Below are positions 14,572 to 31,576 of a stretch of DNA of 38,278 nt, piece after piece. The stretch comes from Poseidonia sp. (GTDB lineage: Archaea > Thermoplasmatota > Poseidoniia > Poseidoniales > Poseidoniaceae). The stretch covers positions 8,561-46,838 of the forward strand of contig JAYQAK010000002.1 of the NCBI GenBank assembly GCA_038136695.1, given 5' to 3'. Both the position numbers and the translations under genes were made by a program. The stretch's first letter is position 1. Every line of letters starts with the position of its first letter. The notes under the pieces were generated by a model. That model ran no database searches. It worked only from the letters and a program-made list of their open reading frames with translations, and was not told where the DNA came from.

Positions 14572-15447
14572 ATGGTCTACGATGGCCCCATCCTCGACAA
14601 CCACTTCCACCTCAATCGTCGTGGACTGTTCCTCGACGCCGCTCGGGATTTTCAGCGAGCCGGTGGAACGGATCTTGTGTTGGTCCATTGCCCCGATTTC
14701 GCTGCACCTCCCGAAACCTTGGAGGGTCACAAAACCACCTATGCTGACACCCTCAAGATGGCGGAAGAGGTACGCGAGGAGGTTGGTTTGGGCGTGCGAG
14801 TGGTGCTGGGTCCACATCCTGCTGCTTTTGCTCACCAATTCGAGCGATGGGTGGCTGAGGACGGTGAGGTTGGAAAGGAGCGAGCGATTGAAAATTACCG
14901 GCATTCCATCGATGCTGCCCTCCACTTCGTTCACGAAGGTCTCGCCCACGCCATCGGTGAGGTTGGACGGCCTCACTGGGAGGTGTCAAAGGACATTTGG
15001 GACCTTTCCAACATGCTCTTGGAAGAAACCATGCACCTCGCTGCTCAAGAAAACATTCCTTTGCAATTGCACGTTGAGGGGGAGAGCGATGCAACCTACC
15101 CGGATTTGGCACAACGAGCCGTTCGTCAGGGCATGGATTTGAAGAAACTGATTCGTCATTACTCGCCGCCCGATGTTCGCATCGAACACACCCACGGATT
15201 AACACCCAGCGTACTCTGTGGAAAAGGGGCTCTTGAACGGCTGATGGAAACGCATGCTTCGGCAAGCCACGGCTTCTTCATGGAAACGGATTACATGGAC
15301 GATCCTCGACGTCCCGGCGCCGTTTTGGGGCCGAAGACGGTGCCGAAGCGAACCCGTCAACTGCTTGACGCCGGTATGGACGAGGAGGTGATGTGGCACA
15401 CCCACCACACCCTTCCCGCTGAAGTTTACGGTTCAAACGAGGCATGA
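14572..15447 (+). CDS. TatD-family metal-dependent hydrolase (archaeal COG1099-like TIM barrel)
   Basis: Motif order: ILDNHFHL (HxH), AIGEVGRPHW, LQLHVEG, LIRHYSP, FMETDYMDD. These are the metal-ligand positions typical of TatD-related hydrolases. It starts 9 nt after the upstream stop. Confidence 0.65.
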   Translation: MVYDGPILDNHFHLNRRGLFLDAARDFQRAGGTDLVLVHCPDFAAPPETLEGHKTTYADTLKMAEEVREEVGLGVRVVLGPHPAAFAHQFERWVAEDGEVGKERAIENYRHSIDAALHFVHEGLAHAIGEVGRPHWEVSKDIWDLSNMLLEETMHLAAQENIPLQLHVEGESDATYPDLAQRAVRQGMDLKKLIRHYSPPDVRIEHTHGLTPSVLCGKGALERLMETHASASHGFFMETDYMDDPRRPGAVLGPKTVPKRTRQLLDAGMDEEVMWHTHHTLPAEVYGSNEA

Positions 15448-15522: not shown

Positions 15523-16608
15523 ATGTTGTCATCTCGCCGTTGGTCCGTTTTGGTGCTGATGTTGATGGTTCTCTCCTTCGCTCCGCCGGTCGGCGCTCAA
15601 GTGCCCACGGCACCGGGTGTGGAAATCGATTGCGACAACAAGCAACCTGAACTTGACGTCCACCCTTTGAACTCGCCCGTGGTTGAAATCACCTGCACGG
15701 TCAAGAACCCCTCCTCCTTCCAGGAATCGATCAACGTTGAGAAAGAATGGGATGGCATTGAAGTCGACATGATGCTTGAGGAGGACACCTTTGACCTTGG
15801 GCCTGACGAAGAGGAAGATTTCCTCGTCACCTTTACGGGGCAAACCCGCCTCTCCTCTTCGCTGTCCTACGACTTCACCCTCGTTGCAACCGTGACCAAC
15901 GTCGGCATGCTGGACTGGCCCGAGGGCTTGTCCTCCAACGCAACCGTGAGCGGTGATTTGAACATCGCCACCTTTGGCATGGTGGACCTCGACATCTCCG
16001 ACAAGAGCACACGGACCATGCAGAAGAGCGATGAGGTCAAAATTTCCTTCCAGTTCCAAAACAACGGCAACGACGACGACAACATCAGGGTCTCCATCAC
16101 GAACGCTGGCGTCCTCGAGGAAGCAGGCTTCACCTTCCCTGGCGGCACCTTTGTGTCGGAAAACGTTGCAGAGGATAGCATTTCCACCGTCCGTGAACTG
16201 ACGGTGCGTGCACCTTCCGATGTGGCGCAGGACGAACGTTTCCAACTGATCTTCCAAGCCGAGAGCCAAAACGATGAGGAAGCCCCCGTCAGTGAACTGA
16301 GCATTTCTGTTCAACTCGAGGCCGGCAACACGGCAGGTGGCCTGGGCGGCGGGCTTGAAGAAGTCGACAAAGACACCGTCGTGCTCTACGGCAGCATCGG
16401 TGCAGCCGTCCTGTTCGGCCTGATTTTTGTCCTTGCTTTGGCGAAGGCGCTCCGTCGAAAAGCCAACGCACAGCCGATGTATGTCCCACCCGTTGACGTT
16501 GAGGATGAGCCGGAAGAGGAAGAATTTGATTTCTCGGAACTTGATGATTTGTTCACCGAGGACGAGGGCGGCGAAGATGACTTCGATGCGGTCTTTGCAG
16601 ACCTGTGA
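15523..16608 (+). CDS. Secreted, C-terminally anchored surface protein with CARDB-like beta-sandwich modules
   Basis: Signal peptide WSVLVLMLMVLSFAPPVGAQV. C-terminal TM VVLYGSIGAAVLFGLIFVLALA followed by KALRRK and an acidic tail (EDEPEEEEFDFSELDDLFTEDEGGEDDFD). This is the same topology as the 1,961-aa protein. Confidence 0.7.
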   Translation: MLSSRRWSVLVLMLMVLSFAPPVGAQVPTAPGVEIDCDNKQPELDVHPLNSPVVEITCTVKNPSSFQESINVEKEWDGIEVDMMLEEDTFDLGPDEEEDFLVTFTGQTRLSSSLSYDFTLVATVTNVGMLDWPEGLSSNATVSGDLNIATFGMVDLDISDKSTRTMQKSDEVKISFQFQNNGNDDDNIRVSITNAGVLEEAGFTFPGGTFVSENVAEDSISTVRELTVRAPSDVAQDERFQLIFQAESQNDEEAPVSELSISVQLEAGNTAGGLGGGLEEVDKDTVVLYGSIGAAVLFGLIFVLALAKALRRKANAQPMYVPPVDVEDEPEEEEFDFSELDDLFTEDEGGEDDFDAVFADL

Positions 16609-16689
16609 TGGACGGATTGCTCCGTTGTTGTGATTTGCTTCGTAACTCGGCCGATGTGTCCCGTTTTCATGGGCAACAGTCAAAGGCTT

Positions 16690-16707
16690 GGTGTAGCGCA
16701 CTACACC
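16690..16707 (+). promoter_or_regulatory. 7-bp perfect stem / 4-nt loop hairpin in the gap upstream of the fabI-like gene, followed by a T5 run
   Basis: GGTGTAG-cgca-CTACACC at 16690-16707. TTTTT at 16724-16728 lies directly before the ATG at 16730. It could be a leaky terminator for the upstream surface-protein gene or a 5'-leader structure of the synthase operon. Confidence 0.3.
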
Positions 16708-16729
16708 TGTTCCCCACGGAGTGTTTTTC

Positions 16730-17521
16730 ATGTTGGGTCTTGAAGGAAAAACAGCCTTTGTCTTCGGGGTGGCCAGTGAAGACTCCATTGCATGGGCGAT
16801 TTGTCAGCAGTTGGCAGCCGCTGGAGTTACCCTCTATCTGGGGTATCAGAAGCGATTCATGAGCCGTGTGTTCCAGCTGAAAGACCAACTGCCTGCAATT
16901 GGAGGGTTCTATCCTTTGGACGTTGCCTCCGACGCTACCACCGCGGAATTCTTCACCGCTTTTGCAGCCGAGCATCCGGGCAAAAAGGCCGATATCCTGA
17001 TTCACGCCATCGGCTTTGCCCCCCGCTCCTGCTTTGACCGACCGATTCTGTTCGTTGAGGACGACGACATCAACACGGCGATGACCATCTCGGCCAATTC
17101 ACTTCAGCGTTGCCTCAAACATGCCCTCCCCTACCTCAACCCGGGCTCGTCCACGGTGACCTTGACGTACGCTGCCTCCACGCGATTTGTGCCAAGTTAC
17201 GGTATCATGTCGATGGCAAAAGCCGCCCTGGAATGCTGGACACGGGAATTGGCTTGCCATCTCGGCCCGGAAGGTCATCGCATCAACGCCATTTCATCAG
17301 GCCCCATCCGCACCATCGCCGCCAGTGGAATTCCAGGATTTGATCGCATTTTGGACCACGTTGAGGCCAACGCCCCGCTTCGTCGAAACGTCAACCAGGA
17401 CGACGTCGCCGGTGCAACCTTGTGGCTTTCAAGCCCGCTGGCATCGGGCGTCACCGGCCAGTGCATCTACGTGGATGCTGGATATTCCATCACGATGGTT
17501 CCCGAGAGCATCATGAATTGA
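16730..17521 (+). CDS. fabI: Enoyl-[acyl-carrier-protein] reductase, FabI type (SDR)
   Basis: The listed start at 16721 is GTG; the ATG at 16730 gives MLGLEGKTAFVFGVASEDSIAWAI, matching the FabI N-terminal GxxxxxSIA motif. The catalytic Y-x6-K is YGIMSMAK. INAISSGPIRTIAASGI and VYVDAGYSI are near-identical in pattern to E. coli FabI (VNAISAGPIRTLAASGI ... HVDGGFSI). Confidence 0.9.
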   Translation: MLGLEGKTAFVFGVASEDSIAWAICQQLAAAGVTLYLGYQKRFMSRVFQLKDQLPAIGGFYPLDVASDATTAEFFTAFAAEHPGKKADILIHAIGFAPRSCFDRPILFVEDDDINTAMTISANSLQRCLKHALPYLNPGSSTVTLTYAASTRFVPSYGIMSMAKAALECWTRELACHLGPEGHRINAISSGPIRTIAASGIPGFDRILDHVEANAPLRRNVNQDDVAGATLWLSSPLASGVTGQCIYVDAGYSITMVPESIMN

Positions 17522-17530
17522 GGTGACGAC

Positions 17531-20500
17531 ATGACGCTGACGACCGAAGACGGCAAAGCCTGCGAGGGCATCGAACAGGGACCGTTCGAACCCATCGCCG
17601 TCATCGGTGTAGGGGCGTTGATGCCCGACGCTCACGAGATTGACGCCTTTTGGCAAAACCTGCTCGACGCCAAAGTCAGCATCAAACCCTTGCCAGAAGG
17701 TCGCTGGCCCGGTCCTGTTGACCATTTTTGGAAGGAAGGTGGCCCTGGTGCCCACACAGAGGGGTTCACCTACGCCAAAATCGGAGCGTTGGTCACCGAT
17801 GCCGAATTCGATTGGCGCCGTTGGCGACAACCTCCCGGAACCCTTCCACAAATCGACCCCTGCCAGCAGTGGGCCGTCACGGTCTCGGCCGATGCCATCG
17901 AGCACGCCGGCTACGATGGAGACTCCAAGGACCTTGATCGCTCCCGAACCGGGGTGGTGTTCGCCAATGCCCTCGGAGGTGAAAACCGAAACATGTCCAA
18001 CATTCGCGTGTGGTCCAACCACACCACCGAACTGGCAAAGCAACACGGTCTGCCGGCCGACCAAGCCGAGGCCTTCACGACCGCTGTTCTCGAAGGTACG
18101 CCGCGGGTTGACGAAGACACCATGCCGGGTGAATTGGCCAACGTGGTGTCCGGGCGCGTGGCCAACCTCCTCGATTTGCAAGGGCCGAACCATGCCATGG
18201 ATGCGGCGTGTGCGTCGTCCATGGCTGCGGTGCTCGATGCTTGCCGATTGCTGCAGACGCGGCAAGTGGACGTCATGCTGGCGGGCGCTTCGGACCGAAC
18301 CATGGACCCTGCTACGTTTGCGAAATTCTCCGCCATCGGCGCCCTTTCACCAAGCCACTCCTCTCCGTTTGATGCTCGAGCGAACGGGTTCGTCATGGGC
18401 GAAGGAGCCGGCGTGTTGGTCCTGAAGCGATTGAGCGATGCCATTCGAGACGACGATGCCATCTTCAGCGTCATTCGAGGCGTGGGGGGCTCTTCCGACG
18501 GCCGAGGAAAAGGCATCACGGCGCCGAGCCAACGCGGTCAAATCCAAGCGATCGCACGGGCGTATGCTCAAGCGGGATACCCCGCATCAAGCGTTGAACT
18601 CGTCGAAGCCCACGGCACTTCCACCAAAGTGGGGGATGCAACGGAACTTTCCACCCTGTCTCGTCTCTGGACCGGCGTCGAGGGAACGGGCAAGGTGGCG
18701 GTGGGTTCCATCAAGTCACAAATCGGCCATCTCAAGGCGGCCGCTGGCATTGCTGGTATCATGAAGGCCGTCATGGCCCTGCACCACCGCACCATACCTC
18801 CCAGTGCCAATTTCGAAACTCCCAATCCAACCGTGGATTGGAACAACATTCCGTTCTTCGTCCCAACACAACCGCTCGAGTGGCCTCGGCCAAGCGACCA
18901 CCCAAGGCGTGCAGGTGTCTCAGCGTTCGGTTTCGGTGGAACCAATTTCCACTTGGCTCTCGAAGGTTACGAGCCCGACTACCACGCCCCGTTGGCCTCC
19001 CAATGGGACGCCCGATGGCAAGCCTACAGCGGCCAATCCAGCGCGGCTGCACCGTCCATTTTCGATGGTGCGGTTGAGGCAACGATGACGCACGAGGCGC
19101 TCAAGGCCATCGAGGGTGGCGTTCTGCTACTCTCGGGGGATTCCTTGGAAGAGGTGGCGGCACAACTCGGTGCCATGTCGTTCAGCGGCCCGTTGTTTGA
19201 CGACGACCCGCAGGGGCGACGCCTCTCCGAAGCCTTGCAAACCGCCAGCGGAGCGTTCGAGGCGACCGCCCCCGTTCGGTTGGCCGTGGTGGCCACATCG
19301 TGGGCCGAATTTTCCAAGCGTCAAACGCTGGCCGCCCAAGCCCTGGCTGACAAAGACAAATGGGGGTTCCTGCAGGCTCAAGGGGTGCTGGTTACCGACC
19401 AGCCGGCCCTGCCAAGTGAAGCAAAAGCCGTTCACATGTACCCCGGTCAAGGCAGTCAATACGTGGGCATGACCGCCGATTTGGTTCAGCGCTTCACGGC
19501 CCCAGCAGAGGTTTGGGCGCAAGCCGACGAGACCATGATCGACGTTCTCGACGGCGAAACGCTCTCCAGTTTCGTGCTTCGTTCCTCGCTGACCGCTGAG
19601 GAATTGAAAGAGGCCGAGCACAAACTCAAGCAAACCGAATACACCCAGCCGGCCATGCTCACGGCCGATTTGGCCATTGAACGAACGCTGCAAAGTTTCG
19701 GCCATCAACCCGACATGGTGGCTGGGCATTCCTTGGGCGAGTACGCTGCCCTGATGTCGTCGGGTATCCTCGATATGGACGGTGCCTTGCGAGCAGCTGC
19801 CGCCCGTGGCACGGAAATGGGTGCCGTGGAAATTGACGACAAAGGCCTCATGGCCAGCGTGACGGCTCCGTACGAAGAGGTGGAGGCCATTCTCGACGCC
19901 ACCGATGGCTATGTCATCGCCGCCAACAAAAACTCACCCAAAATGACGGTCATCGCCGGCGAGACAGCGCCCGTGCGGGCAGCGATGGCGGCGTTTGAGG
20001 AGAAGGGTTTCAACTGCGTGGAGTTGGCTACCTCGCATGCCTTCCACTCGCGTATCGTGGCGCCAGCCAATGAACCGCTGCGCCGTTTCCTGGAAGGCCT
20101 CGAGATTCGATGGCCCTCCGTCCCCATCACGGCCAACGTTGACGGTATGTTCTATCCGATGAAGGGCGAGGACTCCAAGACCGATATCCTGGTCAAATTG
20201 GCGCCACAAATGGCGTCATCCGTCGAGTGGACCAAACAGATTGAGACCATGTACGAGGCTGGAGGGCGTCTCTTTGTCGAAGTTGGTCCGAAGCGAGCCC
20301 TCACGATGTTTGCCATGCAGATTCTCGAAGGCCGCCCGCACGTGCCGGTGATGACGAACCACCCCAAGCAAGGCGGTGTTGCCAGCCTGTTCACCGCCAT
20401 CGGTGCGATGGCCATCGCCGGTCGTCCGCCCGCTTGGCCTGCGTTGGATTCGCCTGCACTTCAGGACGGGTTCAAAGCCGGTCCCATCGAGGCTCGCATG

Positions 20501-23500
20501 GCTTCATCCCTCAGTGCTTCTTCCACCAGCGCTGAATTGGAGGCTTTGCGTGTCCGTGCTCGCCCTCTGCCCGGAAGCGGCGCCAGTGGTCCTTCGGTTC
20601 CACCGACCTCCATGGTTCATGTTGCGAACATGGACGACGAGTACGCACGGGAACGTTCCATTCGGGCGTACGTTGGCGACCGTGTGGCCAAGTTCAGCGG
20701 CTATCCTGCCTCCTTCTGTCACGGGAACGTGGCTTTGGTCGAGGGCTTGGGCTTGACGCCTGCTCAGGTGCAACAGGTGGTGGCGACCATCGCCTCGGAA
20801 TCGACCACCGACCCGGAATTCGACGGAGCGTCGGCCGTGACGGCTGGCGATCTCACTCGCTGGGTGCGTGAGCCACCAGCGACCTGGAGGCCGATGGCCA
20901 CGGTCACCGCTCCTCCCTCGCTCAAAGCGGTTGCCGTGCAGACCGTCTCTGCGCTCCAGCCCACCTCAACGCGCGATGTTGACCCGTACGTGGTCACGGG
21001 TATTTCCTTGGGTTTGCCGGGCATGGAACGGGTGTTCTCGGAGGACGCCTTTGAGAAGTTGGTGCGTGGAGAAACGTGCATCAGCGAGGTCTCGGATGAA
21101 TACAAGCAACGTTTGCTGGACAAGAACATCGTGCGCCTCATCAAAGGCCGTGACGGTTCGGTGAACATGGACCAAGCCACGGTGTTCGGTGACATTCCAC
21201 AACTGGCTGGCCTCAAGGGCGCCTTTGACTTGGCAGAGGAATTCGGCATCGATCCAAAAGCCATCGTGGCATGGGACATCAGCACGCAGTTGGCGGTTGC
21301 TGCCGGCTTGCTGGCGTTGCGCGACGCCGGCATCCCCCTCACACCCGTTGAGCAGGTGGGCAAGGGCGGTCTGCGCCTGATTCGAAACTGGCAGGTGCCG
21401 CAGATACAACGCGAGCGCACCGGTATCGTGTTTTCCTCTTGTTTCCCCGGCTTGCAAATGGCGTCCAAGCACGCCAAGAACAACGGCGACGACGGCGAGG
21501 GACGGTTTGACCGTCGCTACCTGTTCCAAACCCTCAACATGGGCCACTCTCAATTTGCCCAATACACCGGTATTCGGGGACCAAACACCACCATCAACCT
21601 CGCCTGCGCCTCGGCCACGGCAGCGTTTGGCGTTGCCGAGGATTGGTTGGACGCCGGCCGAGTTGACCGTGTGGTCATCATCAGCGGTGACGACGTGACC
21701 GGCGATGACCTCTGGGAATGGATTGCCGGCGGCTTTGCAGCCTCGGGTGCAGCCGCTACCAACAACATCGTCGAGGAAACGGCGTTGCCCTTTGACCGCC
21801 GTCGTAACGGTCTCATTTTGGGCATGGGTGCAGCGGCCTTTGTCGTCGAGCGCCACTCCGAGGCAGAACAGCGAGGTGTGCAACCAATCGCCGAATTCTT
21901 GGGTTCAACCACCGCCAACTCAGCCTACCACGGTACGCGGCTTGACGTGGAGCATGTGGGTTCCGTGGTCAACGGGTTCATCACCGACATGGAACAACGA
22001 TGGGGCCTCAACCGTCACGAAATGGCCTCCGACACCGTCTTTTTCTCCCACGAGACCTACACGCCAGCCCGTGGAGGCTCCGCACAGTCTGAAGTGAGGG
22101 CGTTGCGCGAGACCTTTGGGGAATCCACCAACAAGCTGGTCATCGCCAACACGAAAGGCTTCACCGGCCATCCAATGGCGGTGGGTATCGAAGACGCCAG
22201 CATGTTCTACGGCTTGCTCACGGGTCGTATTCCCCCGATTGCCAACCACAAAGAGAAGGACCCAGAGCTCGGCGATCTCAACCTCTCGACGGGAGGAGAT
22301 TACCCTGAACTCAAGTACGGTCTGCGCTTTGCGGCAGGTTTTGGCTCGCAAATTGCGCTCTCGCTCATGAAGAAATGGCCGGTTGAGGGCGACCGTATCA
22401 ACGGGGCAAAACTCCTCGCTTGGGCACGCACGCTGGCAGGTACAGACGACGTGGTGATGCGAATTCTCCAAAACAAACTCGTTGCATATGTCAACGGGGA
22501 CGACAACCTCCACGGCGGGGTCCAAGGCGATGCCTGGCCACCAACTCAAGATTGGGAAGGCCAACCCTCCGTGGTTGAACAGCCCGCCGCTCAGGTGATT
22601 GAGCCGGCTGCACAAACCGCTCCCGCTGAACCGAAACCGGCACCAACGTCTGCACCAGCAGCGGCCCCAGCCGTCGAAGCAAGTGGGGATATGGTGGCAA
22701 CGGTGATCGAGGTTGTGGTTCATCACACGGGCTATCCTGCCGACTTCGTTGAGTTGGACCAAGACCTGGAAGGCGAGTTGGGCATTGACACCGTCAAGCA
22801 AGCAGAAATCATGGCCGACATCCGAGAACGCTTCGGCTTGCCGGTGGACGAAGACTTCGTCCTTGCTGACTATCCCACCTTGAATCACATGATCGGTTAC
22901 ATTCAGCGCATGACCGGAGGCGCTCCAGCCGCCTCCGCACCCGACCCGGCTTCTGCGCCAACCCAGCCCGCCCACGTTGCACCCTCCACACCCGAACCGG
23001 TCGTAGCGCCACCTGCGGCTGCGCCTGCCGTTGTCGATGATGCTGCCATGACCGAAACGGTGGTTGCGGTGGTCGTCCAGCACACCGGATACCCTGCCGA
23101 TTTCATTGAACTCGACCAGGATTTGGAAGGTGAATTGGGCATTGACACCGTCAAGCAAGCCGAGATCATGGCCGACATCAGAGACCGATTTTCTCTTCCC
23201 GTTGACGAAGACTTTGTTCTCGCAGATCACCCCACGCTGAACCACATGATCGGCTACATTCAGCGTATGCAGGGAGGTGGAACAGCGACGCCAGCAGCGG
23301 CACCTGCGCCCACGCCCCAGGCCGCCACGCCTTCCTCGCCACCGGCAACCGCATCGCCCGCTCCCTCTGCACCAGCACAAACCGGGCCCAGGCCCGACAT
23401 TGAGTCGGTGCTGGTCGAGGTGGTCGTCAGCCACACAGGCTACCCTCCAGATTTCATCGAGATGGACCAAGATTTGGAAGGTGAATTGGGCATTGACACC

Positions 23501-26344
23501 GTGAAACAAGCTGAGATCATGGCAGAAATTCGAGACCGCTTCGCTCTGCCTGTGGACGAGGACTTCGTTCTCGCCGACCATCCCACCCTGAACCACTTCA
23601 CAGCCTACATCGTCAAGATGACCGGGGATTCGCCCCCGCCAGCCGAGGCATCGTCATCGGTGGGCAAAGCGACGGTCGCTTCGGTTGCTTCGGATTTGGC
23701 CCCCTCCTCGATTCAAGCCGGTACGCGCCGGTGGCAAGTTGAGATTGAGGCATGTCCTGGCGTACCCGCTCCCCTTGAGGTCAAGGGCACCGTCGTGGTG
23801 TCCGATGACGGTTGGGGCATCGCTGAAGCCTTCTGTCAACGCATGGAAGCACGCGGCTTGAAGGCGGTTCGAATCGGCTTTGAAACCCGAATTCGGGACG
23901 CCTCATCCATGGACGAAAACGGTCGAACCGTCTACCGGGCCGACCCTGAACAACCCGAGCATCTTCAGTGGATTGCTCAACAACTCGGTTCCTCAACCAT
24001 CGCTGGCCTGGTTCACATGGCACCGATGAAACTTGCCTCAGAGCAATGGGAAGAAGACACCCATCCTTCTTCGCAAATCGCCCTTGCAGCCCACGGCTGG
24101 TTCGGTCTGCTCAAGGAGTTGAGCCCGTTGATGTCCGCCGAGGCTCCTGGATTCATCGCTTCCGTGACCGCTCTGGACGGTCGTCACGGCAACATCGGTG
24201 ACCGTTTCAACGCCGTGCAGTGCGCCGCCAGCGGCGTGACCAAATCCTTCGCCTTTGAACGAACAGACCTTCGCTGTCGGGCCCTGGATCTGCATCCAGA
24301 GCACGTGTTTGACGAGGCCTCTGCGGCCGCCATGGTCGAAGAGGATGTCTTTGGCTTGGGCGGCGAAGTCGAAATCGGACTTGACCGAGACGGACGACGA
24401 TGGGCCCTGGTCGCTTTTGCCGAGGATGTGGTCGACGAGGTCCAGCCGTTGACGGCGGAGGACACGTGGCTGGTCTCCGGCGGTGGCTCAGGCGTGACCG
24501 CTGCCTCCGTCATTGGCGTGGCCAAGGCTTCGCCAAAGGCAGGCGCTCACTTTGTCTTGCTTGGGCGCTCTACGCTCATCGAGTCAACCTCTGCGTGGAT
24601 TGATTGGGATGAGGCTCAACTTGAGCAAGAAAAGAACGAACTCCGCCAGCGGCTCGTCGATGCGAGCGAGCGTGGAAAAGTCACCATGGTGGAGTGGAAC
24701 AACGCCTGGCAGCGATTCACGCGAAGCAGGGACGTGTACCTCACCCTCAGCGCCATTGAAGCCACCGGCAACCACGCCTCCTACCATTCGGTTGATGTCA
24801 TGGACCACGAGGGTTTGTCGGCGTTGGGAGCGTCCCTCGGACGACCGATCACGGGCATCGTCCATGGAGCGGGCCTGGAGGATTCCAAACTGGTGGGCGA
24901 CAAAGGCTACGACGTGTTCGACCGTGTCGTCCGTGTCAAGGTCGATGGCTGGCGAGCCTTGCTGGGAGCCGTTCGAGCGTCAGGAAGAGAGAACCCAACC
25001 TTTGCTTGCTGTTTCACCAGCGTTGCGGGTCGCTTTGGGAACGGTGGACAAACCGACTACGCTGCGGCCAACTCCGTGCTGGATGCCGAAATGGCTCGGA
25101 TCACCGCCACCGCAGAAGGACGGGGTGTTGCCATCGGTTGGACGGGCTGGCGCGACGTCGGCATGGCCACTCGCGGCTCCATTGAAGCGGTGTTCGCTGC
25201 GGCCGGCATCGAAACCCTCGCCGTTGAAGACGGTGTGGCCATTTTCGTCGCTGAAGCGCTTCAGGGAGGCAAGCGACGGGTGCTGGGGTGCGGGTCTCTT
25301 GGACTGATGGACCGTTTCTCCTCGTTCCGTGAGGCGCCACTGAAACTTCCAGCAGAGATGTCGGCCATGATGGCTGACCCTGCACGGTTCCCTTTCATGG
25401 ACAAGGTGGTGTCACTGGAGGAGAGGCGTCACATGGTTTCGCAAAGCACGCTGTCAACCGAAGACCATCCGTTCCTGGTTGACCATGCCATCGAGGGCGT
25501 GCCCTATCATCCCGGTGTGATGGCGCTCGAGATGTTTGCACAAAACGCCTTGTTGCTTCGACCCTCAACTTGCCTGGCAGGTTTCGAAGAAGTCACCTTT
25601 GGGTTACCCGTGAAGCTCATGAAGGGGCCGATGACGGTTCGGGTTGACGCTCAAGTTGAGCGGTCCGAGGGCGACATGACGTGGGTTCGATGCCGCTTGG
25701 TATCGGACCTTACCAATTCGAAAGGGGAGGTCTTTGGGGAACGTGACCACCACACGGCGTTGGTTCGATTGGTCGAGAAATGCGACGACATGTGCCCGTT
25801 CTTGCAACGCGAGGTAGATGAATTGCCGGCGATTGGAACCCCGCCATCCGGTGCCTTGTTGCACCCAGCATCGTTCATTTACGACCGGTATTTCCACGGT
25901 CCTCGTTTCCAATCCCACGGTGGTGTCCTGAGGGGTGTAGGCGAAGGGGATGTCATGGGCATTGACGGGGTTGCCTTGATGCGACACCAACTCCCCGAAA
26001 CCGACCAATTTGCCGTGGAGCGGGAGGGGGAACAGGTGCTCCTTGAAGCCCTCCCGATGCTCATTGAGGCGGGCTTCCAAAACGCTGGTCTGGTGGCGAT
26101 GGAAACCTTGGGCTTGAGCAGCCTGCCCGTCGGAATCACCTGGTCGACCATGCTGCGTGTCCCCGAAGCCAACGAAGCCCTTCGATTGCGCAGCGTCCAA
26201 ACCGGACAGCATGACGACGGCGTTACCGTTCACGATGTGCTTGTGGTTGGTGAGGACGATGCCCCGGTGATGGCGTTGAAAGGTCTGCAGTTGAAGGCCA
26301 TGGCAACGGTTGAAGACGGTCAGCGGTTCTCGCTGGACCGATGA
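17531..26344 (+). CDS. Type I multidomain fatty-acid/polyketide synthase (PfaA-like 'secondary lipid' synthase); domain order KS-AT-(degenerate carrier-like)-KS-ACP-ACP-ACP-KR-DH
   Basis: A single 2,937-aa ORF. The ATG at 17531 lies 9 nt after the fabI stop, with GAGGTGA 7 nt upstream. Its stop overlaps the next gene's start (ATGA at 26341-26344). See the per-domain entries for motifs. No ER, TE, CLF or FabA-type DH domain recognised. Confidence 0.92.
   Translation: [2937 protein letters not shown]
17585..18966 (+). other. KS1: ketosynthase domain with an intact Cys-His-His triad
   Basis: DAACASS (Cys227, nt 18209-18211), [11 protein letters not shown] (His361), [12 protein letters not shown] (His400), C-terminal [12 protein letters not shown]. 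It also has the PUFA/HglE-style insert ending [14 protein letters not shown]. Confidence 0.9.
19426..20330 (+). other. AT: acyltransferase domain, predicted malonyl-specific
   Basis: [21 protein letters not shown] (Ser734, nt 19730-19732) and the HAFH motif (residues 836-839, nt 20036-20047). HAFH is the signature generally associated with malonyl-CoA rather than methylmalonyl-CoA (YASH) selection. Confidence 0.85.
20630..20866 (+). other. Degenerate carrier-protein-like segment between AT and KS2
   Basis: [33 protein letters not shown] parallels the ACP repeats ([30 protein letters not shown]), but reads LGLTP where LGIDT/LGxDS is expected. It therefore has neither the Asp nor a hydroxyl residue at the attachment position. 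Confidence 0.3.
20981..22375 (+). other. KS2: second ketosynthase domain, also with an intact Cys-His-His triad
   Basis: [13 protein letters not shown] (Cys1359, nt 21605-21607), FFSHETYTP (His1507), [13 protein letters not shown] (His1547). The Cys-to-His-to-His spacing of 148/40 aa compares with 134/39 in KS1. Because the active-site Cys is retained, it is not a CLF-type (Cys to Gln) domain. Confidence 0.8.
22691..23620 (+). repeat. Three tandem carrier-protein (ACP-like) domains separated by Ala/Pro-rich linkers (period 351-357 nt)
   Basis: Repeat unit: HTGYP(A/P)DF(V/I)E(L/M)[20 protein letters not shown](D/E)IR(E/D)RF.[11 protein letters not shown](Y/H)PTLNH. The motif residues are Thr1754 (nt 22790-22792), Thr1873 (23147-23149) and Thr1990 (23498-23500). 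The copies differ at many synonymous sites, for example caa/cag, gac/gat, ctg/ttg, ggc/ggt. Confidence 0.85.
23724..25305 (+). other. KR: ketoreductase (structural pseudo-Rossmann subdomain plus catalytic subdomain)
   Basis: Catalytic subdomain: [15 protein letters not shown] (NADPH Gly-rich loop, from nt 24464), [27 protein letters not shown] (Tyr2510, nt 25058-25060). It is preceded by [13 protein letters not shown], a pseudo-Rossmann segment. Confidence 0.8.
25381..26341 (+). other. DH: PKS-type (double hotdog) dehydratase
   Basis: The HxxxGxxxxP motif is exact: [10 protein letters not shown] in [16 protein letters not shown] (His2652, nt 25484-25486). The remaining roughly 290 aa run to the C-terminus. 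It is not a FabA-like dehydratase/isomerase. Confidence 0.7.
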
Positions 26345-27120
26345 CCAACGGTGAGAACATGGACGGCATCGTCCAACACACGCCTCCGTTGAAGCACGAC
26401 GGACTGCTGGTTCTGTCGGCGCCCCTGCACCACCACCTGCCCGGTGACGTGCCTCTTGCTGATGCCAACGAGGTGGCGACCTTCGTTACACAGAAGCGCT
26501 TGCATGAACACTTGAGTGGACGCTGGTTGCTGGGTCAAGCCTTGCATCGCTGGGGCATTGACGACCTGTCGTGTCTCGAGGTCCATCGCACCGAGCATCG
26601 AGCACCGTACCTCGACTACATTCAGGGGGTTTGGAAACGAACACCGCTGCCCCATGTCTCGATCGCCCACAGCCACAGCCGCGTGTTCGTGGCGCTTTGC
26701 CCCCCAAGCCACCGCGTGGGCATCGACGCCGAACCGCTGACGCGAACACTCGCATCAAACGCCTACGACATGATGGCCAAAGGGCGGGAACTCGCTGCTT
26801 TGCATGAACACCCGGCATCGGCCATGGTGTCCTGGACGGCCAAGGAAGCGGTGCAAAAATCGCTCGGTCTCGGGATGCACCTCAATCCACGAGAGATTGA
26901 AATTCCAATTGGTTTAGAGGAGTGCGAAATTTCAATTGGAAATTCAAAAATTCAATTGGTATATTGGAGAGAAAATGACTACCATTTATCCCTCGCGATG
27001 ACCCCCGCAACACCGCCGGAAGCGACGCCGGAGGACGACTTGCTCGAGGCCACTCGTCGGGCGATGGCTGCTCAACCGGATTGGGGCGTGGGATGCAAAA
27101 CCCAGCGAAACAACGCCTGA
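26341..27120 (+). CDS. 4'-phosphopantetheinyl transferase, Sfp/PfaE type
   Basis: The ATG overlaps the synthase stop (ATGA). Motifs: VGIDAEPL (Asp129) and WTAKEAVQKSLGLG (Glu169). At 259 aa it has the length of a two-lobe Sfp-type enzyme. It contains an anomalous AT-rich patch at about 26895-26970. Confidence 0.8.
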   Translation: MTNGENMDGIVQHTPPLKHDGLLVLSAPLHHHLPGDVPLADANEVATFVTQKRLHEHLSGRWLLGQALHRWGIDDLSCLEVHRTEHRAPYLDYIQGVWKRTPLPHVSIAHSHSRVFVALCPPSHRVGIDAEPLTRTLASNAYDMMAKGRELAALHEHPASAMVSWTAKEAVQKSLGLGMHLNPREIEIPIGLEECEISIGNSKIQLVYWRENDYHLSLAMTPATPPEATPEDDLLEATRRAMAAQPDWGVGCKTQRNNA

Positions 27121-27588
27121 TCACGTCCACAACCGGCTGCTCTCCCAAGGCAGGTCGAGGGCGATGCCGATTTCGGTGAGGATGACGAAATTGAACACGA
27201 GGTAGGCCAGCGTGGTCAAGGTGAGCACCACGAGCGAGGTGTTGACGATGCGACGCCGATGGCGTTTGGCTTCGTCCAAGGTGCAGATGCCTTGGTTTCT
27301 GAAGTAAAGGACGAGCCCTCCAATCACCATCCCCGCACTCGCTGTCATCAGGGCAGGACGAAACCATCCCATACCGTTGGTCCCCCAATACAAATCGTTG
27401 GACAGCGCAGCAGCGGTGGAGACGCTGGCGAGGCCGAAGAGGACCAACACCACCGAGGGAAAACAGCACATGGATGCGAGGAACGCCGAGCCACCGATGT
27501 ACCTCCACAACGCTTTGACGTCGTGGGAAAGAGTTTCCTCGGCCATGGTCTCCATTGGTTGGTTGAGGTCTTGAAGATGTGTTCTCAT
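27121..27588 (-). CDS. Small polytopic membrane protein with a MerT-like CC(F)P motif in its first helix
   Basis: The preferred ATG at 27588 overlaps the upstream gene's stop (ATGA, 27585-27588), giving 155 aa. The listed 27669 start would overlap the upstream CDS by 85 nt. GGSAFLASMCCFPSVVLVLFGL resembles the CCxxP first helix of MerT-type metal transporters. About 4 TM helices. The family assignment is tentative. Confidence 0.45.
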   Translation of the reverse strand: MRTHLQDLNQPMETMAEETLSHDVKALWRYIGGSAFLASMCCFPSVVLVLFGLASVSTAAALSNDLYWGTNGMGWFRPALMTASAGMVIGGLVLYFRNQGICTLDEAKRHRRRIVNTSLVVLTLTTLAYLVFNFVILTEIGIALDLPWESSRLWT

Positions 27589-29222: not shown

Positions 29223-29275
29223 CACATCCACAACCCGAAGTTGGTCGTTTCATTGATGAAGATTCGTTCCGTCCC

Positions 29276-30691: not shown

Positions 30692-30748
30692 GCTCTGCCG
30701 TTTGAATTGGCCTTCATAGGGCTTGGCCTTCTGCTCAAACACAACGGC

Positions 30749-31426: not shown

Positions 31427-31504
31427 TGGTTGCTCCTCACCTCAGCCTTTCATGTTTGTTGAGCACAGATGGGAAGGCTGGCGCACTTTGGTGGACCAAG
31501 GAGG

Positions 31505-31576
31505 TGCGGATAGCGGGAGTCGAACCCACGACATAAGGTTGGAAACCTCAGATGATAACCACTTCACCATATCCGC
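31505..31576 (-). tRNA. tRNA-Gly (anticodon UCC)
   Basis: The minus-strand read GCGGATA-TG-GTGA-AGTGGTTA-TCAT-C-TGAGG-TTTCCAA-CCTTA-TGTC-GTGGG-TTCGACT-CCCGC-TATCCGC-A folds as a cloverleaf. It has a 7-bp acceptor stem, 4-bp D stem, 5-bp anticodon stem, the loop TT-TCC-AA, a 5-bp T stem and the TTCGA T-loop. No CCA is encoded (ACCT follows). Confidence 0.85.

What the first reader, a model, noticed from the sequence alone, without database searches (positions are those of the whole stretch)
16730..27120. Self-contained ACP-dependent megasynthase operon (FabI-type ER, then KS-AT-KS-ACPx3-KR-DH, then Sfp-type PPTase) in an archaeal-looking genome
Seen in sequence:
- Three same-strand genes are packed for coupled expression. 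The gap from fabI to the synthase is 9 nt and contains GAGGTGA, and the synthase stop and PPTase start overlap as ATGA.
- Together they supply condensation (two KS), loading (an AT with the malonyl-type HAFH motif), three carrier domains, KR and DH in cis, ER in trans, and the enzyme that activates carrier domains.
- The flanking genes read as archaeal: CarS/DUF46, a TBP-fold protein, a COG1099-type TatD and a SelB-like pseudo-GTPase.

Established knowledge:
- This architecture belongs to the bacterial PfaA/HglE-like 'secondary lipid' type I FAS/PKS families.
- Archaea are generally described as lacking ACP and PPTase-based fatty-acid synthases.

Inference: this encodes an autonomous pathway for a reduced long acyl or polyketide chain in an archaeon. 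No thioesterase, CLF or FabA-type isomerase is present, so both the product and the release mechanism are unknown. I cannot tell from sequence alone whether this cluster type has already been described in MGII genomes.
Basis: partly seen in the sequence, partly recalled or inferred. Interest (0 to 1): 0.85.

Follow-up and report, generated by a model that had tools for sequence, protein, structure and literature searches.

The report
Fatty-acid-type megasynthase operon in marine archaea
A three-gene operon for a bacterial-style, carrier-protein-dependent fatty-acid/polyketide megasynthase is real, sits in the same chromosomal place in both families of Marine Group II archaea, and offers a direct experimental handle on what lipids these abundant, uncultured archaea make.

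Summary

- **Host:** The contig is archaeal (genus Poseidonia) and not chimeric. The synthase was found in 79 species-level Poseidoniales genomes. fabI lies directly upstream in 61/61 testable loci and the PPTase directly downstream in 72/72.
- **Spread:** A diverged copy (about 50% identity) sits in the same TBP-like/TatD context in a Thalassarchaeaceae-labelled genome. The operon therefore probably predates the MGIIa/MGIIb split.
- **Family:** It matches the bacterial "Type R secondary lipid synthase" of Shulse & Allen 2011, whose product is unknown. The archaeal version has FabI where eight bacterial clusters have an acyl-CoA-dehydrogenase-like gene, and it has no carboxylase gene in the operon.
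- **Second KS:** It keeps Cys-His-His in 104/104 relatives, so it is not a chain-length factor.
- **Carriers:** Every carrier domain has threonine at the phosphopantetheine-serine position. This is near-universal in the two-KS family and was not found in the literature searched.

Most likely function: iterative synthesis of a reduced long acyl chain. Product, release step and role are unknown. I rate it a new variant of a known kind.

The parts
16650..16729 (+). Conserved non-coding leader or promoter region upstream of fabI. It holds an invariant box (GGCAACAGTCAAAGGC, box AACAGTCAAAGG at 16675-16686), a hairpin GGTGTAG-cgca-CTACACC (about 16691-16708) and a GGAG Shine-Dalgarno-like site.
   Evidence: Alignment of 55 non-identical loci. 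The box occurs once in the window. The hairpin is paired in 79% of cells, against 22-47% when the partner is slid. No Rfam family matches, and RNAalifold gives no consensus structure.
16730..17521 (+). fabI-type enoyl-ACP reductase (263 aa), the inferred trans-acting ER.
   Evidence: PF13561, 1.2e-68. FabI NCBIfam models score 223 bits, below the equivalog cut-off of 391. Best PDB match is T. thermophilus FabI 1ulu, 1.3e-56 over the full length. The Tyr-x6-Lys motif (SYGIMSMAK) is read. It is adjacent upstream of the synthase in 61/61 loci.
17519..17530 (+). fabI stop codon followed by a Shine-Dalgarno-like TGAGGTGA junction, 9-nt gap.
   Evidence: The TGAGGTG junction is seen in close relatives; 33/55 loci have an SD-like motif under a rough start-codon pick. 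It is also present in the MGIIb-type locus L092.
17531..26344 (+). Type I iterative FAS/PKS megasynthase, 2937 aa: KS1-AT-KS2-ACPx3-KR-DH.
   Evidence: All checked catalytic residues are invariant in 55 full-length orthologues. It aligns at 39-45% identity over 1879-2587 residues to eight bacterial loci.
17588..18817 (+). KS1 (PKS-type ketosynthase; Cys227, His361, His400).
   Evidence: Pfam PF00109/PF02801. Best PDB relatives are modular and iterative PKS KS-AT didomains. Invariant residues.
19430..20329 (+). Acyltransferase, malonyl-type (GHSLGE Ser734, Arg759, SHAFHS).
   Evidence: PF00698, 1.1e-35. FabD TIGR00128, 193 bits. Motifs. Invariant residues.
20990..22390 (+). KS2, a FabF-like second ketosynthase with an intact Cys1359/His1507/His1547 triad (family motifs HETYT and KGFTGH).
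   Evidence: Pfam. PDB FabF 2gqd, 9e-25, with active-site residues aligned. Cys/His/His/Lys are invariant in 104/104 family members, 85 of them below 60% identity to the window and taken as bacterial.
22694..23620 (+). Three tandem carrier (ACP) domains. The attachment position is Thr1754, Thr1873 and Thr1990 (ACC codons at 22790, 23147 and 23498).
   Evidence: PF00550 with 3 stretches. Thr aligns with the phosphopantetheine Ser of PigH, S. coelicolor ACP and AcpM. Thr is found in all archaeal loci, in 75/75 motifs of relatives and in 101 of the best 150 representatives. Codons.
23723..25165 (+). Ketoreductase: inferred structural subdomain plus catalytic KR (Ser2497, Tyr2510, Asn2514).
   Evidence: PF08659 at aa 2399-2542. 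YAAAN motif. Invariant residues. The N-terminal boundary of the structural subdomain is inferred from sequence only.
25391..26341 (+). PKS-type double-hotdog dehydratase (His2652 in HxxxGxxxxP; Glu2846/Gln2850).
   Evidence: PF21089, 1.2e-09 to 1.4e-10, and a weak PF14765 hit. Invariant residues.
26341..27120 (+). Sfp-type 4'-phosphopantetheinyl transferase (259 aa), with its start overlapping the synthase stop (ATGA).
   Evidence: PF01648, 37 bits against a cut-off of 25. Motifs GIDAEP and WTAKEAVQK. Adjacent downstream in 72/72 loci. Only 23-27% identical to the PPTases of bacterial Type R clusters.

Best explanation
**What it is.** The operon is the archaeal form of the bacterial "Type R secondary lipid synthase". 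It was acquired from bacteria before the two Marine Group II families diverged and has been inherited vertically since, at one chromosomal site.

**How it most likely works**
1. The co-translated Sfp-type PPTase converts the three tandem carrier domains to their holo form. The attachment would have to be on threonine.
2. The malonyl-specific AT loads malonyl units from malonyl-CoA onto the carriers.
3. Two catalytically intact ketosynthases carry out repeated decarboxylative condensations. KS1 is PKS-like and KS2 is FabF-like. They probably divide the work by chain length or between priming and extension.
4. KR and DH process each beta-keto group.
5. The separately encoded FabI reduces the enoyl intermediate in trans.

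**Product and role.** The product is a long, largely saturated acyl chain bound to the carriers. No release enzyme is encoded in the operon, so the chain must be taken off by an unlinked thioesterase or acyltransferase. Whether it serves as bulk membrane fatty acid or as a specialised lipid is open.

**Shown versus inferred**
- Shown: gene and domain content, intact active sites, conservation, synteny, family membership and archaeal host.
- Inferred: every enzymatic step, FabI acting as trans-ER, threonine as the attachment site, and the nature of the product.
For: **Domains and conservation**
- All checked catalytic residues are invariant in 55 full-length orthologues, although linker regions fall to about 50-60% mean identity.
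- The KS2 triad is invariant in 104/104 relatives.

**Synteny and host**
- fabI is adjacent in 61/61 loci and the PPTase in 72/72, within 79 Poseidoniales species genomes.
- The same order TBP-like/TatD/fabI/synthase/PPTase is seen in L092 and L093. There the synthase is 54%/48% identical and FabI 74% identical to the window.
- It is also seen in L095 from a Thalassarchaeaceae-labelled assembly.
- Composition is fully host-like.

**Family**
- The architecture matches the published Type R description: KS-MAT-second KS-ACP(3-6)-KR with a downstream PPTase (PMC3098273).
- Hits of about 48% identity with AT-KS2-ACP architecture are named Roseiflexaceae, Acidobacteria and others.
- The window synthase aligns at 39-45% identity along most of its length to eight bacterial loci.

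**ER role of FabI**
- In 8/8 bacterial loci the gene directly upstream of the synthase is an ACAD whose best NCBIfam model is acryloyl-CoA reductase. ETF and Fe-S oxidoreductase genes lie nearby in some.
- FabI occupies that same slot in the archaea, which looks like non-orthologous displacement of a reductase.

**Thr as attachment site**
- Thr aligns with the phosphopantetheine Ser of solved ACPs, and ACP1 contains no serine at all.
- A dedicated PPTase is linked in every bacterial and archaeal cluster examined.
- One two-KS relative (P0364) has Ser at the same position.
Against: - No biochemical or expression data exist for any member of the family. The product is unknown even in bacteria (PMC3098273; no follow-up found).
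- No release enzyme is linked. The nearby 4HBT thioesterase and the membrane alpha/beta-hydrolase are candidates by position only, and the hydrolase is absent from the MGIIb-type context.
- Phosphopantetheinylation of threonine is, to my knowledge, unprecedented. No paper was found for six phrasings.
- FabI scores below every NCBIfam FabI equivalog cut-off (223 against 391 bits). It could serve another substrate.
- The DH has Glu where PKS dehydratases usually have Asp. That comparison rests on my own knowledge of the motif.
- No carboxyltransferase or BCCP gene for malonyl-CoA supply was identified in the window. Only a biotin carboxylase subunit lies 14 kb away.
Confidence: 0.7

Rival explanations
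1. Role refinement: the operon is the main fatty-acid synthase of Marine Group II. It would supply acyl chains for glycerol-3-phosphate-based or mixed membrane lipids, not a minor secondary lipid. The enzymology is the same as in the best explanation, so this rival concerns role only.
For: - The operon is conserved in both MGII families at a fixed locus, with strict conservation of active sites.
- Rinke et al. report that none of 270 MGII MAGs encodes G1P dehydrogenase, while nearly all encode G3P dehydrogenase (PMC6461757).
- Villanueva et al. [quoted passage not shown]
- ACP and its processing machinery are missing in most archaea (PMC3533463), so this may be the only carrier-dependent synthase in the cell.
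Against: - In bacteria the family coexists with ordinary fatty-acid synthesis and was therefore classed as secondary (PMC3098273).
- MGII genomes keep a complete archaeal isoprenoid ether-lipid pathway (PMC6461757).
- No acyltransferase (PlsX/Y/C-type) is linked to the operon in any locus examined.
- I could not measure what fraction of all Poseidoniales genomes carry the operon.
Confidence: 0.3
2. The product is an unsaturated or polyene polyketide rather than a saturated chain. FabI would act in only some cycles or on another substrate, and KS1 and KS2 would run distinct programmes, as in PUFA, enediyne or heterocyst-glycolipid synthases.
For: - The best full-length model hit is PfaA (TIGR02813, 846 bits).
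- Two KS domains and tandem carriers recall PUFA synthases.
- antiSMASH-type surveys list HglE-KS and T1PKS clusters in Poseidoniaceae (retracted paper).
Against: - No FabA-type dehydratase/isomerase, PfaB/C/D homologue, thioester reductase, glycosyltransferase or enediyne accessory gene was found in 38 kb.
- The TIGR02813 score is below its cut-off of 1010 and covers mainly KS-AT.
- A reductase gene is strictly coupled to the synthase both in the archaea (FabI) and in the eight bacterial clusters examined (ACAD).
Confidence: 0.12
3. The carrier domains are not phosphopantetheinylated on threonine. They would be inactive or use another chemistry, and the operon would be a conserved relic or have a non-biosynthetic role.
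For: - Only serine is known to me as the phosphopantetheine acceptor, and no paper on threonine was found.
- The PPTase is very divergent: 37 bits to Pfam ACPS, no PDB sequence hit and no NCBIfam hit.
Against: - Thr is nearly invariant at exactly the Ser position across a family that spans archaea and many bacterial phyla.
- All other active sites are under strict conservation.
- A PPTase gene with intact Mg-binding and KEA motifs is linked in every cluster examined.
- Intact ORFs of more than 2500 aa are present in 54 other loci.
Confidence: 0.1
4. Artefact: a bacterial fragment mis-assembled or mis-binned into archaeal genomes.
For: - The family is otherwise bacterial.
- One locus (L004) is labelled Verrucomicrobiales.
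Against: - 79 independent species-level assemblies carry it, on contigs of 150-594 kb. The 90% FabI cluster occurs on a 1.64-Mb contig named Ca. Poseidonia alphae.
- Three genomes have isolate names of single-cell format; that reading of the names is my inference.
- A TBP-fold gene lies on the same contig.
- DNA is collinear across both junctions in 23-26 assemblies.
- GC3 is host-like.
- L004 has the same archaeal synteny, so it is the mis-binned one.
Confidence: 0.01

Closest known systems
Type R secondary lipid synthase gene cluster (Shulse & Allen 2011, PLoS One 6:e20146; Koribacter, Solibacter, Elusimicrobium, Roseiflexus)
   Same: - One PfaA-like protein with KS-MAT-second KS-like-ACP(3-6)-KR, followed by a PPTase gene.
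- Relatives named Roseiflexaceae and Acidobacteria are about 48% identical in the KS2 region.
- Identity is 39-45% along the whole protein.
- The Thr-type carriers and the HETYT motif in KS2 are shared.
- The product is unknown in both.
   Different: - The host is an archaeal order, and no archaea appear in that paper.
- FabI sits where 8/8 bacterial loci examined here have an acryloyl-CoA-reductase-like ACAD.
- There is no acyl-CoA carboxylase gene in the operon.
- The paper calls the second KS a CLF, yet its Cys-His-His triad is intact throughout the family.
- The PPTase is only 23-27% identical to the bacterial cluster PPTases.
PfaA of the bacterial PUFA synthase PfaABCD/E (TIGR02813)
   Same: - KS-MAT-tandem ACP-KR-DH order.
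- A homologous carrier motif (LGIDSIKRVEIL against LGIDTVKQAE).
- A dedicated Sfp-type PPTase.
- An ER supplied in trans.
   Different: - A second, intact KS is inserted between the AT and the carriers.
- The carriers have Thr, not Ser.
- There is no PfaB, no PfaC (KS-CLF-FabA-type DH) and no PfaD. The ER here is an SDR FabI, not the PfaD-type flavoenzyme (the latter from my own knowledge).
- The model score of 846 is below the cut-off of 1010.
HglE-type heterocyst glycolipid synthases (antiSMASH class hglE-KS)
   Same: A PfaA-like KS-AT-ACP-KR core. It is probably the class under which automated surveys file the MGII cluster.
   Different: No HglC/HglD partners, thioester reductase or glycosyltransferase are present in the window. 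The host is not a cyanobacterium. A two-KS single polypeptide with DH and a FabI partner is not the Hgl layout (Hgl layout from my own knowledge).
ArsA/ArsD type I fatty-acid synthase of Azotobacter vinelandii (Type P in Shulse & Allen)
   Same: An iterative PfaA-like synthase makes a long saturated acyl chain. From my own knowledge, that chain stays on the carrier and is handed directly to another enzyme. This is a precedent for a synthase with no thioesterase.
   Different: The Ars genes flank two type III PKS genes that accept the chain. No type III PKS or other acceptor is linked here.
Bacterial FabI enoyl-ACP reductase of type II fatty-acid synthesis (for example T. thermophilus FabI, PDB 1ulu)
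   Same: Full-length alignment at 1.3e-56, with the Tyr/Tyr-x6-Lys catalytic motif.
   Different: It scores below all NCBIfam FabI equivalog cut-offs. It is translationally coupled to a type I megasynthase. The host belongs to a domain in which ACP and its processing machinery are generally absent (PMC3533463).

Membership tests
Type R secondary lipid synthase cluster (Shulse & Allen 2011) | A single PfaA homologue with the order KS-MAT-second KS-like ("CLF")-ACP(3-6)-KR. | tested here: met
   Pfam, NCBIfam and motif reading give KS1-AT-KS2-ACPx3-KR-DH. The published definition is in PMC3098273. The second KS is catalytically intact, so it is not a true CLF.
Type R secondary lipid synthase cluster (Shulse & Allen 2011) | A PPTase gene downstream of the synthase. 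| tested here: met
   The PPTase starts inside the synthase stop codon and is adjacent in 72/72 loci.
Type R secondary lipid synthase cluster (Shulse & Allen 2011) | Sequence relatedness to the bacterial members (Roseiflexus, Acidobacteria and others). | tested here: met
   KS2-region hits of about 48% identity are named Roseiflexaceae, Acidobacteria and Terriglobales, with AT-KS2-ACP architecture. Identity is 39-45% over 1879-2587 residues to eight bacterial loci. The type-strain sequences themselves were not compared.
Type R cluster as seen in 8 bacterial loci here | An acyl-CoA-dehydrogenase-like gene directly upstream of the synthase, and an acyl-CoA carboxylase gene in the cluster. | tested here: not met
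   The ACAD is directly upstream in 8/8 bacterial loci, and carboxylase genes are present in 7 of 8 (not seen in L082). The archaeal operon has FabI instead and no carboxylase. These features are not part of the published definition.
Pfa PUFA synthase (PfaABCD/E) | PfaA reaches the TIGR02813 cut-off; PfaC with KS-CLF and FabA-type DH domains; PfaB AT; PfaD ER. | tested here: not met
   TIGR02813 scores 846 bits against a cut-off of 1010, with the best stretch covering KS-AT only. No FabA-type DH or PfaB/C/D-like gene was found among the main ORFs of the 38-kb window that were scanned.
Heterocyst glycolipid synthase (Hgl) | HglE plus HglC/HglD KS-CLF partners, a thioester reductase and a glycosyltransferase. 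| tested here: not met
   No such genes are in the window or in the conserved flanks of 79 loci. The list of Hgl components comes from my own knowledge.
Enediyne PKSE | KS-AT-ACP-KR-DH with a fused C-terminal PPTase domain and a hot-dog thioesterase partner. | tested here: not met
   The PPTase is a separate ORF. There are two KS and three carriers, and no adjacent thioesterase. The PKSE layout comes from my own knowledge.
FabI enoyl-ACP reductase | SDR fold of the adh_short_C2 type with the Tyr-x6-Lys catalytic motif, and a score at the curated equivalog cut-off. | tested here: inconclusive
   Fold and motif are met (PF13561 1.2e-68; SYGIMSMAK; 1ulu 1.3e-56). The best NCBIfam FabI model gives 223 bits against a cut-off of 391. 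It is therefore a divergent FabI-family protein whose substrate is untested.
Sfp-type 4'-phosphopantetheinyl transferase | ACPS domain above the Pfam cut-off, a size of about 230-260 aa suggesting two lobes, and the (V/I)G(I/V)D and WxxKEAxxK motifs. | tested here: met
   PF01648 scores 37 bits against 25, with weak N-lobe hits. GIDAEP and WTAKEAVQK are read. The fold could not be checked because the single-sequence AlphaFold model had pLDDT 32.
Canonical acyl carrier domain (PF00550) | A conserved Ser in the D-S-(L/I/V) motif as the phosphopantetheine attachment site. | tested here: not met
   The motif is D-T-V in all three domains. Thr aligns with the Ser of PigH, S. coelicolor ACP and AcpM. 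ACP1 has no Ser at all. The fold-level Pfam match is met (93 bits).
Order Poseidoniales (Marine Group II) chromosome | The locus lies in MGII genomes with conserved archaeal neighbours. | tested here: met
   79 loci are nearly all titled Poseidonia, Poseidoniaceae or Poseidoniales. Conserved synteny with a TBP-fold gene is shown. A Thalassarchaeaceae-labelled copy is shown.

The most novel reading that the evidence does not exclude
The carrier domains of this synthase family, in Marine Group II archaea and in the many bacteria with the two-KS architecture, carry their 4'-phosphopantetheine arm on threonine rather than serine. The arm would be installed by the family's own co-inherited PPTase. 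That would be a new post-translational linkage. It would also define a carrier/PPTase pair that is orthogonal to housekeeping systems, which could explain why the PPTase always travels with the synthase.
Probability: 0.5. Interest if true: 0.8.

Novelty: new variant of a known kind. Interest (0 to 1): 0.72.

Why it matters
**For archaeal lipid biology.** Marine Group II archaea are among the most abundant archaea in the surface ocean. They are uncultured, and their membrane lipids are unresolved. Their genomes lack G1P dehydrogenase but keep the archaeal ether-lipid genes (PMC6461757). ACP and its processing machinery are reported missing in most archaea (PMC3533463). A carrier-dependent, malonyl-fed megasynthase found in both MGII families, with its own reductase and PPTase, runs against that picture. 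It turns the "mixed membrane" hypothesis into a three-gene expression experiment.

**For PKS/FAS enzymology.** Two points are of independent interest and can be tested with the same constructs:
- The carrier attachment position is threonine in nearly all members of the two-KS family.
- The second ketosynthase has been labelled a CLF, yet it has an intact active site.

Tried and rejected
- **Full-length homologue search.** It failed internally but counted against the cap. I used the 700-aa KS2 region instead.
- **CarS/DUF46 next to the operon.** Rejected: no Pfam, NCBIfam or PDB support for the 182-aa ORF or any other ORF tested.
- **Chimera or mis-binning.** Rejected.
- **PUFA, Hgl and enediyne membership.** Rejected because the partner genes are missing.
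- **MGIIb neighbour ACAD as a remnant of the bacterial cluster ACAD.** Rejected: only 31% identity and generic family hits.
- **Alpha/beta-hydrolase (27585-29231, minus strand) as the release enzyme.**
  - It has no PDB or NCBIfam match and only a weak Pfam Lipase_3 hit (E 0.27).
  - It is absent from the MGIIb-type context.
  - It is kept only as a positional candidate.
- **Single-sequence AlphaFold models.** The PPTase and hydrolase-domain models were unusable (pLDDT 32 and 31), so no fold searches were run.
- **fabI leader.** There is no Rfam family and no RNAalifold consensus. Only one hand-specified helix has moderate support.
- **Literature, all 10 searches used.**
  - No held MGII genomics paper mentions ACP, ketosynthase, PPTase or polyketide.
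  - I found no follow-up on the Type R product, nothing linking long-chain acyl-CoA carboxylase with a PKS cluster, and nothing on threonine phosphopantetheinylation.
  - Villanueva et al. 2017 and Dibrova et al. 2014 are not held, so I could not check how far they describe these genes.


Full report
**Observation**

The window has three tightly packed plus-strand ORFs at the stated coordinates.

- fabI runs from 16730 to 17521. Its TGA stop (17519-17521) overlaps GAGGTGA (17520-26), and the synthase ATG follows at 17531 after a 9-nt gap.
- The synthase stop and the PPTase start overlap as ATGA at 26341-26344.
- Pfam assigns FabI to adh_short_C2 (1.2e-68). In the 2937-aa protein it finds KS (aa 20-429), AT (634-933), a second KS (about 1154-1620), three PP-binding domains, KR (2399-2542) and a PKS-type DH (2621-). 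The 259-aa protein has an ACPS domain of 37 bits against a cut-off of 25.
- The translation shows intact motifs: DAACASS/EAHGTST/SQIGH in KS1, GHSLGE and SHAFHS in the AT, LACASAT/SHETYT/KGFTGH in KS2, YAAAN in the KR and HAIEGVPYHP in the DH.
- KS2 aligns to FabF structures with its Cys and both His in register.
- FabI aligns over its full length to Thermus FabI (1ulu, 1.3e-56) and has the Tyr-x6-Lys motif.
- The PPTase has GIDAEP and WTAKEAVQK.

CarS/DUF46 is not confirmed.

**Host and integrity of the contig**

- A scan of one genome per GTDB species with the synthase returned 79 loci at 60-96% identity. Nearly all are titled Poseidonia, Poseidoniaceae or Poseidoniales. Contigs reach 594 kb, and three isolate names (AG-461-G23, AG-404-K16, AH-273-F07) have a single-cell-genome format, which is my reading of the names.
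- A tblastn of all window ORFs against these loci shows fabI directly upstream in 61/61 testable loci and the PPTase directly downstream in 72/72.
- The wider order is kept in most loci: 1961-aa protein / 268-aa protein / TBP-like / TatD / choice-of-anchor-T protein / operon / small membrane protein / hydrolase / M28 peptidase / S8 subtilase.
- GC and GC3 of the operon fall within the range of the flanking genes.
- Exact-sequence look-ups show the window comes from a 46.8-kb NCBI record. The 90% FabI cluster has 397 member sequences and occurs on a 1.64-Mb contig named Ca. Poseidonia alphae.
- Public records name the three proteins FabI, [quoted passage not shown] and "4'-phosphopantetheinyl transferase family protein".
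- The one locus labelled Verrucomicrobiales (L004) has the same archaeal synteny, so it is the mis-binned one.

**Spread beyond MGIIa**

The species scan used exact peptides from the query and could only find close relatives.

- A FabI search found a second clade at 73-79% identity. It includes proteins named Candidatus Thalassarchaeaceae and MGII MED-G33.
- Their contexts show the same arrangement.
  - L092 and L093 (110- and 80-kb contigs) read large protein / ACAD / unknown / TBP-like / TatD / FabI / 3008-aa synthase / 207-aa PPTase.
  - L095, from the Thalassarchaeaceae-labelled assembly GCA_034399495.1, reads ACAD / unknown / TBP / TatD / FabI / KS, with the same 9-nt fabI-to-synthase gap.
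- In L092 the synthase is 54% (N-terminal 1800 aa) and 48% (C-terminal part) identical to the window. FabI is 74%, the PPTase 40%, and the TBP-like and TatD neighbours 46-47% identical. The TGAGGTGA junction and the LGIDTVKQAE carrier motif are kept.
- Among 50%-identity representatives, the window synthase has one relative at 77% and one at 52%. More than 25 two-KS proteins then follow at about 32-44%.

I infer a single acquisition before the MGIIa/MGIIb split, followed by vertical inheritance. The MGIIb assignment rests on one NCBI label plus sequence clustering.

**What family it is**

- The KS2 region finds archaeal fragments at 63-93% identity, then a step down to about 48%. Those hits come from many bacterial phyla (Myxococcota, Roseiflexaceae, Acidobacteria, Actinomycetota, Gemmatimonadota and others) and have AT-KS2-ACP architecture.
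- Eight bacterial contigs share one layout: a 500-560-aa ACAD directly upstream, then KS-AT-KS2-ACPn-KR-DH, then a PPTase. The synthase is often split by assembly frameshifts.
  - Seven of the eight also carry acyl-CoA carboxylase genes: a single-chain multidomain form in most, and separate subunit genes upstream in L087.
  - ETF and/or Fe-S oxidoreductase genes lie beside the ACAD in L082 and L087, and an ETF gene lies a few genes further upstream in L080.
- The window synthase aligns to each of them over 1879-2587 of its 2937 residues at 39-45% identity.
- This is the "Type R" cluster of Shulse & Allen (2011). They describe one pfaA homologue, KS-MAT-CLF-ACP(3-6)-KR, with a downstream PPTase, in Koribacter, Solibacter, Elusimicrobium and Roseiflexus. 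In Koribacter an ACC gene lies between the two. The product is unknown, and the paper does not mention archaea (PMC3098273).
- I found no later work on its product.

**How the archaeal version differs**

- FabI occupies the slot held by the ACAD in all eight bacterial loci. The best NCBIfam model for those ACADs is acryloyl-CoA reductase, which is a reductive member of the ACAD family. FabI has no counterpart in the bacterial loci. I read this as non-orthologous displacement of a trans-acting enoyl reductase. It is also the main argument that FabI works with the synthase.
- No carboxylase gene is in the operon. An AccC-like biotin carboxylase lies 14 kb upstream.
- The PPTase is only 23-27% identical to the bacterial cluster PPTases.
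- The ACAD near the MGIIb copy is generic, at 31% identity to the bacterial cluster ACAD.

**Two family-wide features not previously noted**

- *The second KS is not a chain-length factor.* Its Cys, both His and the Lys are invariant in 104/104 relatives. Of these, 85 are below 60% identity to the window and were taken as bacterial. It is also the most conserved domain among the archaeal orthologues, at 86% mean identity.
- *Every carrier domain has Thr at the phosphopantetheine position.*
  - In the window these are Thr1754, Thr1873 and Thr1990 (ACC codons).
  - Thr is present in all archaeal loci, in 75 of 75 motifs in the relatives, and in the two bacterial loci checked, L080 and L081.
  - Alignment with solved carrier proteins places this Thr on the modified Ser, and ACP1 has no serine at all.
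  - A phmmer search of 1.84 billion representatives gave 2760 hits at E<=1e-10. Of the best 150, 101 have only Thr-type motifs and 45 only Ser-type.
  - Among near-full-length proteins, Thr goes with the two-KS architecture (27-28 of 32) and Ser with single-KS PfaA-like proteins (17 of 20).
  - One two-KS protein (P0364) has LGIDSVKVAE, so Ser and Thr do interchange at this position.
  - Six phrasings for threonine phosphopantetheinylation found no paper. To my knowledge only the serine linkage is catalogued.

**Mechanism**

What is shown: all domains needed for a full reducing cycle are present, and every checked catalytic residue is invariant in 55 orthologues although linkers have diverged.

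What I infer:

1. The PPTase makes the holo-carriers.
2. The AT loads malonyl units.
3. KS1 and KS2 extend the chain, possibly dividing the work by chain length as the two KS of PUFA synthases do. That analogy is my own knowledge.
4. KR and DH process the beta-carbon, and FabI reduces the enoyl intermediate, giving a largely saturated long acyl chain.

Release is not encoded in the operon. There are two positional candidates:

- A hot-dog 4HBT thioesterase at about 6713-7216(-). It is conserved beside the large protein in close relatives.
- A membrane-anchored alpha/beta-hydrolase at 27585-29231(-) with HG and GHSLG motifs. It has no database relatives and is missing from the MGIIb-type context.

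Direct transfer from the carrier to an acceptor is equally possible. My own-knowledge precedents are the Azotobacter Ars system and the acyltransferase domain of myxobacterial Pfa3.

**Prior knowledge and novelty**

- Lombard et al. state that only a few unrelated archaea have ACP and its processing machinery, acquired by transfer from bacteria (PMC3533463).
- Rinke et al., Tully et al. and Damashek et al. discuss MGII fatty-acid degradation and mixed-membrane potential. They do not mention polyketide, acyl carrier protein, enoyl or malonyl terms.
- PMC7852524 cites Villanueva et al. [quoted passage not shown] That paper is not held.
- A retracted survey lists T1PKS and HglE-KS clusters in Poseidoniaceae without analysing them.

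So the genes are annotated and have been flagged by automated tools, and the architecture is catalogued in bacteria. I found no description of the following points:

- the operon's distribution across both MGII families;
- the FabI-for-ACAD swap;
- the intact second KS;
- the Thr-type carriers.

I rate it a new variant of a known kind, with interest 0.72.

**Side observation: the region upstream of fabI**

- The roughly 60 nt upstream of fabI are conserved far beyond the neighbouring coding DNA. An invariant box (AACAGTCAAAGG, 16675-16686) occurs only once in the window.
- The box is followed by clade-specific hairpins. In one clade the hairpin buries the Shine-Dalgarno-like AGGTG.
- One helix is paired in 79% of cells, against 22-47% for slid controls.
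- RNAalifold finds no common structure, and Rfam has no match.
- The region may be an operator plus a translational control hairpin. This is unresolved.

**Limits**

- I could not identify the bacterial donor. All bacterial relatives are about equally distant, at 38-50% identity.
- I could not model the PPTase or the hydrolase; single-sequence AlphaFold gave pLDDT of about 31-32.
- I could not test expression or any chemistry.

Noticed in passing
window 22790-22792, 23147-23149, 23498-23500 (Thr1754/1873/1990 of the synthase); also L001-L079, L080, L081, L092: All carrier domains read LG(I/V)DTVKQAE, with Thr at the position of the phosphopantetheine Ser. ACP1 has no Ser at all. The Thr type goes with the two-KS architecture, and Ser-type relatives are PfaA-like. 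One two-KS protein (P0364) has Ser.
   Followed up: yes
window 16650-16729: The non-coding stretch upstream of fabI is conserved in 55 loci. It has an invariant box AACAGTCAAAGG (16675-16686), then clade-specific hairpins (window: GGTGTAG-cgca-CTACACC) and an anti-SD-like ACACCT. There is no Rfam match and no RNAalifold consensus. It may be an operator plus an SD-sequestering leader.
   Followed up: partly
window 20750-20990 (synthase aa about 1075-1150): Between the AT and KS2 lies a segment that looks like a degenerate carrier or docking domain (..VEGLGLTPAQVQQV..) without Ser. It is poorly conserved (linker mean identity 51%) and has no Pfam hit.
   Followed up: no
window 27585-29231 (-): A 548-aa protein with an N-terminal multi-pass membrane region and a C-terminal alpha/beta-hydrolase-like domain (LLHGFG oxyanion motif, GGHSLG nucleophile elbow). 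It has no NCBIfam or PDB relatives and only a weak Pfam Lipase_3 hit (E 0.27). It is convergent with the operon in MGIIa but absent from the MGIIb-type locus.
   Followed up: partly
window 6713-7216 (-) (ORF listed as 6713-7540): A 4HBT hot-dog thioesterase (PF03061, YciA-like). Public gene calls give 156-170 aa. It is conserved beside the 1961-aa protein in close relatives. It is a possible release enzyme by analogy with the 4HBT thioesterases of Pfa systems (my own knowledge).
   Followed up: partly
window 1813-3153 (+): A stand-alone AccC-like biotin carboxylase (557 bits, just under the subfamily cut-off of 597). No carboxyltransferase or BCCP gene was identified in the window, so the malonyl-CoA supply for the synthase is not explained locally.
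   Followed up: no
window 14020-14562 and 14572-15447 (+); L092 8195-9709; L095 1531-3042: A divergent TBP-fold paralogue (far below NCBIfam TBP cut-offs) is always paired with a TatD-family hydrolase just upstream of the operon, in both MGII families.
   Followed up: partly
window 7317-13202 (+) and 15523-16608 (+): A 1961-aa protein has no Pfam domain at all, yet is conserved in MGIIa and MGIIb (36% identity). A secreted, membrane-anchored choice-of-anchor-T protein (NF041740, 118 bits) is present in MGIIa but missing in the MGIIb-type locus.
   Followed up: no
L080-L087 (bacterial loci): Bacterial Type R clusters consistently have an acryloyl-CoA-reductase-like ACAD of 500-560 aa directly upstream of the synthase. 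ETF and/or Fe-S oxidoreductase genes sit beside it in L082 and L087, and an ETF gene lies a few genes further upstream in L080. Most also carry a roughly 1860-aa single-chain BC-BCCP-CT carboxylase. This suggests an electron-transfer-flavoprotein-linked enoyl reduction step.
   Followed up: partly
JGI sample 3300067032, contig of P0274 (no DNA held): The nearest FabI relative outside MGII that I examined (60% identity) sits in a lipid-type cluster that looks bacterial: radical SAM, methyltransferase, fatty-acyl-AMP ligase, ACP, fatty-acid desaturase, DUF1702, alpha/beta-hydrolase and FabI.
   Followed up: no
L004 (NZEQ01000014.1): This contig is deposited as "Verrucomicrobiales bacterium ARS100". 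It carries the MGII operon at 83% identity with MGII synteny, so it is almost certainly mis-binned.
   Followed up: partly
window 31503-31576 (-): tRNA-Gly (TCC), the only Rfam or ARAGORN hit in the window.
   Followed up: yes
window 29276-30742 (-) versus 29525-31360 (+): Two long ORFs overlap on opposite strands. The minus-strand one is an M28 peptidase. The 611-aa plus-strand ORF has no family hit and may be an antisense artefact of high GC, although tblastn finds it in 57 loci.
   Followed up: no
window 37312-38277 (+) and 31637-37219 (-): A partial open frame at the window end looks, by eye, like an ABC-transporter membrane domain; I did not test it with any tool. There is also an 1860-aa S8 subtilase. 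Together with the M28 peptidase, this fits the proteolytic lifestyle described for MGII.
   Followed up: no
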